NCBI GenBank assembly: GCA_934120395.1
Contig: CAKOTZ010000006.1
Location: 16,914 to 80,913, forward strand
DNA: 64,000 bases
From: an uncultured Clostridia bacterium
Lineage (GTDB): Bacteria > Bacillota > Clostridia > TANB77 > CAG-508
Reading direction: 5' to 3'
Shown here: one piece after another, positions 27,757 through 30,023 of the stretch
How the letters are laid out: each line of letters starts with the position of its first letter
How positions within the stretch are numbered: the stretch's first letter is position 1
Program-made: the position numbers and the translations under genes
The notes under the pieces: model-generated
The model's input: the letters and a program-made list of their open reading frames with translations, nothing else
What the model was told of the DNA's origin: nothing
Databases searched by the model: none

Positions 27757-27925
27757 AAATTTAGTCGTTCCGTGAGAGCGTAAATATTGTTGATTACGGC
27801 TAGAAACTTACCATACAAAGGTAAGTTTTTTGTTATTTATACTTTACAAGTTCAAGATAATCATATAAAACATATTCAATAAATTAACATAAAATTACAT
27901 AAGAAAGAGGGAGAAAAATGAACTT
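27757..27925 (+). repeat. direct repeat copy A of DGR-target leader region (~170 bp)
   Basis: ccgactacacaacaatatatgaaaatttagtcgttccgt ... ataccatacaaaggtaagtttttt ... tactttacaagttcaa repeated at 28385-28766 with indels. Confidence 0.6.
27804..27836 (+). terminator. rho-independent terminator
   Basis: aaacttacc-atacaaa-ggtaagttttttg. Confidence 0.7.
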
Positions 27926-27993
27926 GAAAAGTAACAAAGCGATTACACTGGTAGCATTGATAATTACAATATTTTTATTGCCTATGAAATAAG
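27919..27993 (+). pseudogene. truncated third copy of DGR target gene (N-terminal 24 codons only)
   Basis: MNLKSNKAITLVALIITIFLLPMK* matches first 20 aa of gene at 28761 (MNLKSNKAITLIALIITIIILLI...). Confidence 0.6.
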
Positions 27994-28237
27994 TAACAAT
28001 AATAATTTTCAATATAATGCAAGTAAAAAATTGTTTTTTAAGCAATAATTTTTATTTACTACTAGAAGTAGCTAACATTTTATGATACAATTATATTCGT
28101 TGTCGGCTCTCCACAACAGAGGGAGGTGTAACGCTTGGAGTACATAATTTCCTTTTTTGTGTCTATCGGAGTAGAAGTAGTTAGTTACTATATCTGCAAA
28201 TGGCTAGATAAACACAAGCACGACAATTAGCCAAAAA

Positions 28238-28270
28238 AACAGAGGAGCTGCAACTCCTCTGTTTTTTGCG
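28238..28270. terminator. strong hairpin + T-run (terminator-like) in non-coding spacer
   Basis: aaaaaaacagaggagctgcaactcctctgttttttg. Confidence 0.55.
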
Positions 28271-28384
28271 TGAAACACTTGGTTATCACATAATTTCCTC
28301 TTTAGTATTTACATTATAGCATATTGTTTTTTGATTTACAAGTGTAATTATAAAATTCATGCAAAGGTAAGCCTACTTTACCGC

Positions 28385-28766
28385 CTACACAAAAATATAT
28401 GAAAATTTAGCCGTTCCGTTCTCCAAGGCGCTTGGACAACAGTCCTTTCAAATTTTAATGAACACATTCTAAACTTGTGGAATGAATAACTGCTTCAAGG
28501 TCGAACTCACTATTAAATTTTATATATTTTTGCCTACGGCTAGTGAAAGGTAGTTTAGTGTATTGAAATAGATACTACATTAGCGAGAAGAACAAAAAAA
28601 TACCATACAAAGGTAAGTTTTTTTCATTTGTACTTTACAAATTCAAAATTATAATATAAAATGTATTTAAATAATTAACATAGAATTACATAATATTGCT
28701 TAAAGATGGATAAGCTAAAATAGTAATTATGTTAGAAATACAAAGGAAAGAGGTATAAAAATGAAC
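28385..28766 (+). repeat. direct repeat copy B of DGR-target leader region
   Basis: see copy A. Confidence 0.6.
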
Positions 28767-30023
28767 TTGAAAAGTAACAAAGCAATCACATTGATAGCAT
28801 TGATAATCACAATAATTATATTGCTAATATTAGCAGGAGTGAGTTTGTCAATGGTGCTAGGAGAAAATGGTTTAATTAACAAGGCACAGTCAAGTGTAAA
28901 CAAATACAAAGAGAGTAGCGAAAATGAACAAAAGCTATTAAATAGTATAGAAAATTATATGGATTTACAACTAAAATTACCAGGAGAAAAAGTAGATTTA
29001 CCAGATGGATGGAATAAAGATACAGTAGATGCAGTATTAGATGATAAGAAAAACACAATACCAGTACCAAAGAACTTCTATTATGTAGGAGGGAATTTAG
29101 ATAATGGAGTAATTATATCGGACAATTCAGCTGATGCCTATGATGGAAAAGTAGACAAAACAACATGGGAATATACAACAAGCTTAGTAGGCAACCAATT
29201 TGTATGGATACCATGCACAGAATCTGAATATCATAAGACAGAATGGGAAAGTCAAAGTCAATATGTTTATGGTGTATACGATAAATCGGGACCAAGTCAA
29301 GATGAAATAGATAAAGTTAAAAAATATAATGGTTTTTATGTAGGAAGATATGAAGCAGGGTTAGCAGACACAATAAAAGAATATACAGGAAATCAATTAA
29401 GCGATGGTTCAAATAGTCCAGGATATAATGTAGCAGGAATACCAAAGTCAAAGGCAGGAGAATTACCATGGATATTTATTAACCAAACAAATAGTAAAGC
29501 AAATGCAGAAAAAATGTATGAAAAAAATACTTGTGTAACAAGTGGACTAGTAACAGGAACACAATGGGACGTAATGTTAAACAAATTTATTGGAACAACA
29601 AATGCTAATAGAGTAACTTTTACAGAAGCAGACATGAAAAATTCAAGTAAATGGGGAAATTGTTATAATAATGACTTGATATATACAGGAAGGTCAGCAA
29701 CATTATTTAAGAATGGAAGTAGTGAGTATATAAGCCCATGGGGAGAAAAACAAATAAATGCGGAAACAAAAACAAATACATGTACCGAATATACAACTGG
29801 TGCCAGTAAGTCTACAGAAGCATATCATATTTATGATGTAGCAGGGAATGTATGGGAATGGACGGAGGAGGTCGGACAAGGCACTGCATATCGCGTCATT
29901 CGTGGTGGTTCTTGTGGGAATGATCAAGATACTAGTCCAGCGTGTTGGCGTTATTCTACTCTCAAAGATTATGAGGTGTACTATCACATCGGATTTCGTA
30001 CTGTATTGTATATAAAAAATTAG
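28761..30023 (+). CDS. membrane-anchored FGE-sulfatase-fold (SUMF1/EgtB/PvdO-type) protein, DGR target paralog with decayed variable region
   Basis: 420 aa. N-terminal TM anchor; GFYVGRYEAGLADT; C-terminal AGNVWEWTEEVGQGTAYRVIRGGSC...GFRTVLYI. 3' 118 nt (29893-30010) homologous to TR but differs at non-A positions too. Confidence 0.8.
   Translation: MNLKSNKAITLIALIITIIILLILAGVSLSMVLGENGLINKAQSSVNKYKESSENEQKLLNSIENYMDLQLKLPGEKVDLPDGWNKDTVDAVLDDKKNTIPVPKNFYYVGGNLDNGVIISDNSADAYDGKVDKTTWEYTTSLVGNQFVWIPCTESEYHKTEWESQSQYVYGVYDKSGPSQDEIDKVKKYNGFYVGRYEAGLADTIKEYTGNQLSDGSNSPGYNVAGIPKSKAGELPWIFINQTNSKANAEKMYEKNTCVTSGLVTGTQWDVMLNKFIGTTNANRVTFTEADMKNSSKWGNCYNNDLIYTGRSATLFKNGSSEYISPWGEKQINAETKTNTCTEYTTGASKSTEAYHIYDVAGNVWEWTEEVGQGTAYRVIRGGSCGNDQDTSPACWRYSTLKDYEVYYHIGFRTVLYIKN

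What the first reader, a model, noticed from the sequence alone, without database searches (positions are those of the whole stretch)
27919..30023. Paralogous target with decayed VR, truncated third target copy and duplicated leader regions: history of target cassette duplication
Gene 28761..30023 is a paralog of the active target with a 3' region homologous to the TR (29893-30010). It differs at many non-A positions (ggc->ggt, tgc->tgt, extra codons), so the current TR cannot be diversifying it. It is either a decaying former target or served by a lost TR. Upstream, a 24-codon stub (27919-27993) reproduces the target N-terminus. The ~170-bp leader (27757-27925) is repeated at 28385-28766.
Basis: seen in the sequence. 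Interest (0 to 1): 0.55.

Follow-up and report, generated by a model that had tools for sequence, protein, structure and literature searches.

The report
Frozen paralog beside an active DGR target
Next to a working diversity-generating retroelement in an uncultured gut Clostridia bacterium sits an intact sister copy of its target gene whose "variable" end no longer receives mutations, plus a truncated gene start; this is a clear example of a situation already described for these elements.

Summary
Gene 28761-30023 is an intact 420-aa paralog (68% aa identity) of the DGR variable protein 30149-31414. Its last 118 nt (29893-30010) align without gaps to the template repeat (TR, 32915-33032). Of 40 mismatches, 28 fall on non-adenine template bases. 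The true variable region (31287-31404) has 12 of 13 mismatches on adenines.

Strain comparison settles activity. The paralog's TR-like end has the same protein sequence in three alleles and differs by one residue in a fourth. The true target's end differs in every allele. Two genomes differ at only 10 of 21,266 nt, and all 10 lie in that end.

The paralog has lost the GC-rich 3' core shared by TR and the active region. It also lacks the conserved motif found after the active region's stop codon. It evolves under relaxed constraint (dN/dS 0.34 versus 0.01) and is deleted in one strain lineage.

It is not a recent local duplicate. dS is about 0.8, and it belongs to a separate subfamily found elsewhere without a nearby RT. 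That subfamily still carries a DGR footprint.

The stub (27918-27992) and the "leaders" are copies of a 5' module shared across the family, including genes of other types. Non-diversified target paralogs with remnant TR homology are already published. Interest is low to moderate.

The parts
26404..27756 (+). DUF4143/AAA_14 ATPase gene. Its last 8 codons read into the first copy of the repeated 'A element'.
   Evidence: Pfam AAA_14 and DUF4143. Repeat D11, 27732-27773 versus 28378-28419, 93%.
27732..27917 (+). 5' module copy 1. It contains the A element (27732-27773), a terminator hairpin (27802-27830), a promoter-like TTTACA/-10 region (by homology, about 27843-27871) and a ribosome-binding site.
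27918..27992 (+). Stub: a 24-codon ORF. The first 21 codons match the family N-terminal module (MNLKSNKAITLVALIITI..). Homology ends at 27981.
   Evidence: (D7). Identical in L002.
28135..28230 (+). A 31-codon hydrophobic ORF (TTG start) followed by a strong terminator hairpin (28234-28267). It lies between the stub and module copy 2 and is not related to the target family.
   Evidence: No Pfam or NCBIfam hit. Sub-threshold Rfam SpF66 match at 28099-28275, 27 bits against a gathering score of 42. The stretch 28075-28171, which includes its start and first 12 codons, is absent from L002 and L099.
28378..28760 (+). 5' module copy 2, the long form. Order: A element, 146-nt extra block, terminator hairpin, promoter TTTACA-17-TAAAAT (28634-28662), 52-nt extra block, ribosome-binding site.
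   Evidence: The same long form occurs in L097 and L098 at 88-90% identity.
28761..30023 (+). Paralog, subfamily B. An intact 420-aa protein with a pilin-like N-terminal helix and a C-terminal FGE-sulfatase/C-type-lectin domain.
29893..30010 (+). VR1, the TR-homologous end of the paralog. It is static and not templated by the TR.
   Evidence: (D2).
30149..31414 (+). Active DGR variable protein, subfamily A.
31287..31404 (+). VR2, the active variable region.
   Evidence: 12 of 13 mismatches to the TR are at adenines. It is hypervariable among strains.
31415..31439 (+). Conserved motif after the stop codon (ACCTGAACGCTTGTTAGCGATGCAC). It is absent after the paralog.
31526..31891 (+). Avd accessory gene.
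   Evidence: PF22296 bAvd, 63.4 bits. NF033474, 75 bits.
31869..32885 (+). DGR reverse transcriptase.
   Evidence: RVT_1. The IGNYTSQ and YMDD motifs are visible in the translation.
32915..33032 (+). Template repeat (TR).
33028..33173 (+). RT-14 RNA motif immediately 3' of the TR.
   Evidence: Rfam RF02921, 122.9 bits against a gathering score of 48.1.

Best explanation
The region is the upstream flank of a working chromosomal diversity-generating retroelement (DGR). Its order is target, Avd, RT, TR, RT-14 RNA.

Gene 28761-30023 is an intact sister ("B-type") member of the same surface-protein family as the real target ("A-type"). It has its own predicted promoter. The family has a pilin-like N-terminal helix and a C-terminal C-type-lectin/FGE domain.

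The paralog's C-terminal 118 nt descend from a DGR variable region, but mutagenic homing no longer reaches them. The 3' GC-rich core shared by the TR and the active region has drifted away through mostly silent GC-to-AT changes. The conserved motif after the stop codon is missing. The sequence has therefore been frozen, at least since the sampled strains diverged.

The gene persists as a stable, weakly constrained and dispensable counterpart of the diversified gene, and one strain lineage has deleted it.

The stub and the two "leaders" are copies of a 5' module (3'-flank element, terminator, promoter, ribosome-binding site, about 50 N-terminal codons). That module precedes every family member, including genes with unrelated C-terminal bodies. 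Repetition of this module plausibly drives deletion, truncation and copy-number change at the locus.

Shown: lack of templating, stasis, loss of 3' elements, the presence/absence polymorphism, the old age of the A/B split, and the modular 5' region.

Inferred: that the B lineage was once actively diversified; that loss of the 3' elements caused the freezing; that the repeats mediate the rearrangements.
For: The DGR is real and active:
- Pfam bAvd and RVT_1 hits, an NCBIfam Avd hit and the Rfam RT-14 RNA.
- TR versus VR2: 12 of 13 mismatches at adenines.
- Seven VR2 alleles all differ. 21 of 27 variable columns are TR adenines. Of the other six, four are substitutions in a variant TR that the active region copies.
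- L002 and L099 differ at 10 of 21,266 nt, all inside VR2.

The paralog is not templated:
- 28 of 40 mismatches are at non-adenine TR bases.
- A scan of the window for any sequence able to template VR1 finds only the TR itself (28 non-adenine mismatches) and trivially A-rich tracts. The same scan for VR2 finds the TR with 1.
- VR1 differs at 2 of 118 nt between the window and L001, against 2.4% divergence across the aligned 2.6 kb.
- Cluster members P0121 and P0122 have the same protein sequence as the window over VR1. VR2 differs at many residues in P0029, P0124 and P0125, whose remaining sequence differs from the window by at most 1 aa.
- The last 18 nt of the TR homology carry 6 changes, 5 of them synonymous.
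- The post-stop motif occurs after 20 of 48 active variable regions in related loci and after 0 of 11 non-diversified or RT-distant family genes tested.

Constraint:
- B orthologs: dN/dS 0.34 (15 nonsynonymous, 11 synonymous). This is below neutral (p=0.009) but far above A outside its variable region, 0.011 (1 and 24; Fisher p=4e-5).

Dispensability:
- L002 and L099 (L086 is an overlapping fetch of the L002 contig) replace window 28371-30013 with a 44-nt palindrome. They retain AAAAAATTAG, the Lys-Asn-stop ending specific to this B gene. They are therefore deletion derivatives.

Age and family:
- B versus A dS is about 0.8, and they form separate clades.
- B-type genes occur at RT-less loci L083-L085. 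A B-then-A tandem occurs in L098, and L083 is 96.9% identical over the same stretch.

Past diversification of B:
- Entropy across B-clade proteins is 2.46 bits at TR codons with an adenine in position 1 or 2, against 1.07 elsewhere (p=1e-4).
- Between the window B gene and the L098 B gene, dN in the TR-like end is 0.45, against 0.09 elsewhere.

Module:
- The A element directly follows the stop codon of B genes in L083 and L098.
- The leader plus N-terminus precedes Flg_new-type and 121-aa genes in L084.

Literature:
- Stable paralogs that co-exist with diversified targets (PMC3521204).
- A paralog with remnant TR-VR homology, Nostoc all3226 (PMC7517822).
Against: - Only 64 kb of this genome was available, so a second TR elsewhere cannot be formally excluded.
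- Stasis rests on four B alleles: the window, P0121 and P0122 (protein-level only), and L001/P0001.
- The post-stop motif is not universal. 28 of 48 active regions in related loci lack this form, and L098_A lacks it while keeping a near adenine-only pattern against this TR. Its absence is therefore suggestive, not decisive.
- No expression data exist for the paralog or the stub.
- The claim that the B lineage was ever diversified rests on a between-lineage variability pattern. Selection on the same ligand-contact positions could partly produce that pattern.
Confidence: 0.8

Rival explanations
1. The paralog is an active target served by a second, unlinked TR (and possibly a second RT) elsewhere in the genome.
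For: Remote targets and multi-target DGRs are documented (PMC3521204; PMC7517822). The B clade carries a DGR-like variability footprint. Only 64 kb of the genome could be scanned.
Against: VR1 has the same protein sequence in three alleles and differs by 1 aa in a fourth. Meanwhile VR2 has turned over in every allele, including between genomes otherwise identical over 21 kb. The 3' GC core has eroded by silent changes. No candidate TR exists in the window.
Confidence: 0.03
2. The paralog, stub and leaders come from recent in-situ tandem duplication of the active target cassette, followed by decay.
For: The genes sit in tandem in the same orientation. The leaders are repeated at 84-93% identity. 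A stretch just upstream of the variable regions is 92% identical between the two genes.
Against: dS between the genes is about 0.8, and above saturation in the first 60 codons. They fall in different clades, each with closer relatives in other genomes and loci. The active gene's own leader (30024-30148) is only weakly similar to the repeated module (D8). The module is shared with genes of other types.
Confidence: 0.08
3. The paralog was never a DGR target. Its similarity to the TR reflects only shared ancestry of the lectin-fold scaffold.
For: There is no direct trace of a homing event in this lineage. Framework positions also differ from the TR.
Against: B-clade variability is concentrated at the codons that are adenine-coded in the TR (p=1e-4). 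dN is five-fold higher in the TR-like end than elsewhere, at similar dS. The homology to the TR is in register and gap-free over the full 118 nt.
Confidence: 0.1
4. The paralog is a functionless gene on its way to loss: an unprocessed pseudogene that has not yet been disrupted.
For: Its dN/dS of 0.34 is about 30-fold above that of its neighbour. It is cleanly deleted in the L002/L099 lineage with no other change at the locus.
Against: The ORF is full length in the window, L001/P0001 and P0121. P0122 is shorter only because its called start is internal. dN/dS is significantly below 1 (p=0.009). The gene has a complete promoter and ribosome-binding-site module. B-type genes are retained across lineages with dN/dS 0.14 outside the TR-like end.
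Confidence: 0.15

Closest known systems
Non-diversified paralogs of DGR targets (Schillinger et al. 2012, DiGReF, PMC3521204; Vallota-Eastman et al. 2020, Nostoc all3226 with 'remnant TR-VR homology', PMC7517822)
   Same: A target-family gene that keeps recognisable TR homology at its 3' end but is not being rewritten. It sits alongside an actively diversified copy. The papers interpret such genes as stable counterparts, or as variants fixed after diversification was removed.
   Different: Here the frozen copy lies immediately upstream of the active target inside the DGR locus. Its stasis is shown directly by strain comparison. It is a presence/absence polymorphism. The erosion of the 3' homing-related sequence by silent substitutions is visible.
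Bordetella phage BPP-1 DGR (Mtd, TR/VR, and the IMH site at the 3' end of the VR). Recalled from established knowledge, not re-read here.
   Same: Adenine-specific TR-to-VR information transfer into the C-terminal lectin-fold domain. It depends on sequence identity at the 3' end of the VR.
   Different: This DGR is chromosomal and has the order target-avd-RT-TR. The target has an FGE-type domain and a pilin-like anchor. The element after the VR is a conserved sequence motif without a covarying hairpin, unlike the cruciform described for BPP-1.
MSL-containing DGRs, architecture D of Wu et al. 2018 (PMC5758913)
   Same: Avd plus a small protein carrying only MutS domain I next to the RT/TR (33485-33922, minus strand).
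   Different: This clade also carries a conserved 92-aa OB-fold gene right after the TR and RT-14 RNA. That gene is not among the four accessory classes listed in that survey.
Multi-target DGRs with several active VRs (for example the Table 2 organisms in PMC3521204)
   Same: Tandem paralogous FGE-type target genes at one DGR.
   Different: In those, each VR shows adenine-only differences. Here only one of the two does. Related loci L017, L008 and L026 show the same pattern of one active and one diverged VR.

Membership tests
Diversity-generating retroelement (the locus as a whole) | A reverse transcriptase of DGR type next to the repeats | tested here: met
   RVT_1, 62.7 bits. IGNYTSQ and YMDD motifs in the translation. 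80 related RT loci have the same layout.
Diversity-generating retroelement (the locus as a whole) | A TR/VR pair whose differences fall on template adenines | tested here: met
   TR 32915-33032 versus VR2 31287-31404: 12 of 13 mismatches at adenines.
Diversity-generating retroelement (the locus as a whole) | Accessory gene (Avd) and DGR-associated RNA | tested here: met
   bAvd PF22296, 63.4 bits. NF033474, 75 bits, just under its cut-off of 80. Rfam RT-14, 122.9 bits.
Diversity-generating retroelement (the locus as a whole) | Ongoing diversification | tested here: met
   All 10 differences between L002 and L099 over 21,266 nt lie in VR2. Seven VR2 alleles are all distinct.
Active DGR variable region (applied to 29893-30010) | Homology to the TR at the 3' end of an ORF | tested here: met
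   78/118 identity, gap-free and in frame.
Active DGR variable region (applied to 29893-30010) | Mismatches restricted to TR adenines | tested here: not met
   28 of 40 mismatches are at non-adenines.
Active DGR variable region (applied to 29893-30010) | 3' end identical to the TR (an IMH-like core) plus the downstream cis element | tested here: not met
   6 changes in the last 18 nt. The post-stop motif is absent. Which nucleotides are functionally required in this clade is inferred, not shown.
Active DGR variable region (applied to 29893-30010) | Hypervariability among closely related genomes | tested here: not met
   2 of 118 nt differ between the window and L001. The protein sequence is identical in P0121 and P0122.
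C-type-lectin/FGE-fold DGR variable protein | C-terminal FGE-sulfatase-type domain containing the variable region | tested here: met
   PF03781, 27.3 bits (paralog) and 25.8 bits (active target), against a cut-off of 23.3. No structure was predicted.
Type IV pilin (prepilin N-terminal methylation domain) | The G/FTLxE-type class III signal with Glu at position +5 | tested here: not met
   N_methyl PF07963 scores 15.9 bits for the active target, below its cut-off of 21.2, and gives no hit for the paralog. The sequence K-A/G|ITLVAL has Ala in place of Glu5. The N-terminus is pilin-like in topology only.
Type I toxin-antitoxin or small toxic peptide (ORF 28135-28230) | A match to a known toxin or RNA family | tested here: inconclusive
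   No Pfam or NCBIfam hit. Rfam SpF66 scores 27 bits against a gathering score of 42.

The most novel reading that the evidence does not exclude
The shared 5' module (3'-flank element, terminator, promoter, ribosome-binding site, about 50 N-terminal codons) could be a recombination substrate that the bacterium uses, not just a duplication scar. Homologous exchange between modules would archive, delete, re-deploy or swap whole C-terminal binding domains. The frozen paralog would then be a stored DGR-evolved variant and the stub an emptied expression site. This would combine point hypermutation with cassette-level switching.
Probability: 0.07. Interest if true: 0.6.

Novelty: new member of a known kind. 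Interest (0 to 1): 0.25.

Why it matters
This locus documents the "retirement" of a DGR target well. The same locus holds one copy that is rewritten in every strain and a sister copy that is frozen. The frozen copy shows silent-site erosion of the 3' homing sequence, relaxed constraint and outright loss in one lineage.

That is useful as a natural control for defining which cis sequences this DGR clade needs. It also helps annotation pipelines that would otherwise call such paralogs as targets. It does not change the understanding of how DGRs work.

Tried and rejected
- Exact look-ups of the paralog protein and of the 31-aa ORF found nothing on record.
- Two scans of the JGI metagenome collection found nothing. 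One used a conserved intergenic 34-mer. The other used a VR1 pattern masked at adenine-equivalent positions. The species appears absent from that collection, so the search for a second TR there is uninformative.
- A local "TR able to template VR1" scan is swamped by A-rich tracts. Only hits with few adenine mismatches mean anything.
- I tried to align the stretch between the stub and module copy 2 (27982-28377) with the 3' flanks of family genes in L097 and L098. Only a 32-nt match appeared. The idea that the stub and this stretch are the two ends of one internally deleted gene is therefore not supported.
- A hairpin or cruciform after the active variable region was tested. The window has a 4-bp stem (z = -1.2). 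Across 15 loci no pair in the motif covaries. I rejected it as a structure and kept it as a sequence motif.
- Complementarity between the post-stop motif and the TR flanks was inspected by eye in 18 loci and was not consistent.
- The A element's long-range stem and the 146-nt extra block gave no Rfam match, and the fold z-score is only -2.3.
- A half-site of the L002/L099 palindrome matches the window only at chance level.
- A literature search for SpF66 returned only malaria-vaccine papers.
- The PDB sequence search gave only marginal FGE-family hits.
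Full report
**What is there**

The window around 26.4-33.5 kb holds a complete chromosomal diversity-generating retroelement (DGR). In order, it contains:
- a variable-protein gene (30149-31414)
- avd (31526-31891; Pfam bAvd 63.4 bits, NCBIfam Avd 75 bits)
- a reverse transcriptase (31869-32885; RVT_1, with IGNYTSQ and YMDD in the translation)
- the template repeat TR (32915-33032)
- the Rfam RT-14 RNA (33028-33173, 122.9 bits)

TR and the variable region VR2 (31287-31404) differ at 13 of 118 positions. Twelve of these are TR adenines. 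The thirteenth is a C/T difference three bases from the end of the homology. That C/T difference (TR ACTCTA, VR ACTTTA) recurs in each of the 18 related loci inspected.

**Check of the observation**

ORF 28761-30023 encodes 420 aa and is 68% identical to the variable protein. Both proteins hit the FGE-sulfatase family above its cut-off. Its last 118 nt before the final codons (29893-30010, VR1) align to the TR in frame and without gaps at 78/118 identity. Of the 40 mismatches, 12 are at TR adenines and 28 at other bases.

Its first 21 codons match the family N-terminus.

The repeated leader spans 27732-27917 and 28378-28760. Copy 2 carries two extra blocks of about 146 and 52 nt. There are no extra codons inside VR1. 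The only one nearby is an Asn codon before the stop, outside the TR homology.

**Is the paralog being diversified? No.**

Strain-level relatives were recovered from public assemblies.
- L001 carries the paralog and part of the active gene at 97.6% nt identity.
- L002, L086 (an overlapping fetch of the same contig) and L099 carry the same locus at 96-99% identity.
- Several short contigs carry the VR2 end, avd and the RT.

Seven VR2 alleles are all different. Of 27 variable columns, 21 are TR adenines. Four of the other six are positions where a variant TR (L088/L089) has changed, and the VR2 copies in L088, L090 and L094 carry all four changes (L092 three of them). This shows continuing TR-to-VR transfer.

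L002 and L099 come from two samples and differ at only 10 of 21,266 nt. All ten lie inside VR2, and eight are at TR adenines.

By contrast, VR1 differs at 2 of 118 nt between the window and L001. That is no more than the 2.4% background divergence. The protein sequence over VR1 is identical in two further cluster members, P0121 and P0122. The active gene's cluster members P0029, P0124 and P0125 differ from the window by at most 1 aa outside the variable region, but at many residues inside it.

Any homing event from the present TR would have erased the 28 non-adenine differences. None has happened since these alleles diverged. A scan of the whole window for a sequence that could template VR1 returns only the TR itself (28 non-adenine mismatches) and trivially A-rich tracts. 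The same scan for VR2 finds the TR with one.

**Why it is no longer reached (inference)**

The last 18 nt of the homology read GGGTTCCGTGCCGTACTC in the TR and GGGTTCCGTGCCGTACTT in VR2. In VR1 they read GGATTTCGTACTGTATTG. That is six changes, five of them synonymous and five running from G/C to A/T. The protein-level constraint was kept while a DNA-level constraint was lost.

In addition, a motif follows the stop codon of the active gene (CTGA.C.CT..GCGAT; window 31415-31439). It follows 20 of 48 active variable regions in loci whose RTs are only 59-73% identical. It follows none of 11 non-diversified or RT-distant family genes, including this paralog. It shows no covarying hairpin. It is also not universal, so its absence is supporting evidence only.

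**Status of the gene**

The ORF is full length in the window, L001/P0001 and P0121. P0122 is shorter only because its called start is internal. A complete promoter and ribosome-binding-site module precedes the gene.

Between the window and L001 the paralog has 15 nonsynonymous and 11 synonymous differences, giving dN/dS 0.34. This is below neutrality (p=0.009). It is far above the active gene outside its variable region, which has 1 nonsynonymous and 24 synonymous differences (dN/dS 0.011; Fisher p=4e-5).

The L002/L099 lineage lacks window 28371-30013 and has a 44-nt palindrome in its place. It retains AAAAAATTAG, the Lys-Asn-stop ending that is specific to this paralog. It is therefore a deletion derivative, not an ancestral state. 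The paralog is weakly constrained and dispensable.

**History**

The two genes are not recent duplicates. dS is about 0.8 overall and beyond saturation in the first 60 codons. In a neighbour-joining tree that excludes the N-terminal module and the variable region, they fall in separate clades. The active gene groups with P0029, P0013, P0014, P0018 and others (A). The paralog groups with P0001-P0012 (B).

B-type genes occur at loci with no RT within 10 kb (L083, L084, L085). A B-then-A tandem occurs in a different genomic context in L098, and L083 is 96.9% identical to L098 over the same stretch. The B gene of L083 and L098 has an identical TR-like end in two samples.

Across B-clade lineages, variability concentrates at the codons that are adenine-coded in the TR: 2.46 versus 1.07 bits (p=1e-4). 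The A-clade values are 2.74 versus 0.80. Between the window B gene and the L098 B gene, dN is 0.45 in the TR-like end and 0.09 elsewhere, at similar dS.

So the B lineage carries the footprint of past DGR diversification. This supports "former target, now frozen" over "never a target". A lost B-specific TR cannot be distinguished from decay after separation from the present TR.

**The stub and leaders**

The element TTACCGCCTACACAAAAATATATGAAAATTTAGCC begins both leader copies. In L083 and L098 it directly follows the stop codon of B genes. After it come a variable-length block, a terminator hairpin, a promoter, a ribosome-binding site and about 50 nearly invariant N-terminal codons.

The same leader and N-terminus precede genes with unrelated bodies. 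In L084 these are two Flg_new-type proteins of 403 and 405 aa and a 121-aa protein. The repeats are therefore the standard intergenic and 5' module of a multigene family.

The stub is one more copy of that module, cut after codon 21. It cannot be assigned specifically to a former DGR target. It is identical in L002, so it predates the divergence of the window and L002 strains. What follows it (27982-28377) is unrelated to the family. That stretch carries a 31-codon hydrophobic ORF with its own terminator.

**Comparison with what is known**

Stable paralogs that co-exist with diversified targets were described by Schillinger et al. 2012 (PMC3521204). A dispersed paralog with remnant TR-VR homology was described in Nostoc, with the suggestion that diversification is removed once a variant is selected (PMC7517822). 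Related loci here show the same pattern of one active and one diverged variable region (L017, L008, L026).

The finding is a well-documented new instance of a known situation.

**Verdict**

Novelty: new member of a known kind. Interest: 0.25.

Noticed in passing
window 33194-33472 (+): A 92-aa OB-fold ORF starts 21 nt after the RT-14 RNA (Pfam tRNA_anti-codon, 22 bits, below its cut-off). A homolog lies on the same strand within 3 kb downstream of the RT in 59 of 69 related loci with enough downstream sequence; in the best-matching loci it starts about 300-450 nt after the RT. It looks like a conserved cassette gene of this DGR clade. It is not among the Avd, HRDC, MSL and CH1 accessory classes of Wu et al. 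2018.
   Followed up: partly
window 33485-33922 (-): A 145-aa protein carrying only MutS domain I. It corresponds to the 'MSL' DGR accessory gene of Wu et al. 2018. A homolog lies within 3 kb downstream of the RT in 21 related loci.
   Followed up: partly
window 31415-31439; related loci: A conserved motif, CTGA.C.CT..GCGAT, follows the stop codon of 20 of 48 active variable regions. A second form, CTGAA.GCTGTGAAAAC, follows others. No covarying hairpin was found. This is a candidate cis element for target recognition.
   Followed up: partly
window 33030 versus 31402; the 18 loci: The TR reads ACTCTA where the active variable region reads ACTTTA. This single C/T difference recurs in every related DGR inspected. 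It marks the 3' limit of information transfer.
   Followed up: partly
window 28099-28275 (+), ORF 28135-28230: A 31-codon hydrophobic ORF (LEYIISFFVSIGVEVVSYYICKWLDKHKHDN as translated from its TTG start) with a structured 5' region and a strong terminator. It has a sub-threshold Rfam match to Streptococcus sRNA SpF66 (27 bits against 42; E=3.5e-4 for this small search). The stretch 28075-28171, including its start, is deleted in L002 and L099 between short AGAAGTAG repeats. It may be a small toxin-like peptide gene.
   Followed up: partly
L002 9822-9865, L086 8445-8488, L099 9822-9865: A 44-nt near-perfect palindrome (DNA fold -17.5 kcal/mol, z = -9) replaces window 28371-30013 in the paralog-less lineage. 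It occurs nowhere else in the sequences fetched, and its origin is unexplained.
   Followed up: partly
L084 10001-17824; L085 10001-13016: Within a genome, the ~50-aa N-terminal module is almost identical among family genes with different C-terminal bodies, yet it differs between genomes. This suggests concerted evolution or gene conversion of the 5' module.
   Followed up: no
window 30149-30328 versus 28761-28940: In the first 60 codons of the active gene versus the paralog, synonymous sites differ at 91%, above random expectation, while the protein is conserved. The active gene is also richer in G+C (39% against 33%, window average 29%). This may reflect divergence that limits recombination with other family copies.
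   Followed up: no
L098 11747-11801 versus L001 4-58: The tail of the L098 contig, after a B-then-A tandem next to the dlt operon, is 100% identical to the head of L001. Some strains may therefore carry a four-gene array (B'-A'-B-A) upstream of the DGR, in a different genomic context from the window. The shared stretch lies in a repeated module, so contiguity is unproven.
   Followed up: no
L098 11148-11265: An A-type gene has no avd or RT within 526 nt downstream. Its end nevertheless differs from this window's TR almost only at adenines (17 adenine and 4 other mismatches) and keeps the GC core. It may be a remote active target in that genome.
   Followed up: no
window 34745-35996 (+): The D-alanyl-D-alanine carboxypeptidase (Peptidase_S11) is split into two ORFs, 34745-35170 and 35226-35996. 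The same split is seen in L002 and L099. A mazEF pair lies just upstream at 34122-34687.
   Followed up: no
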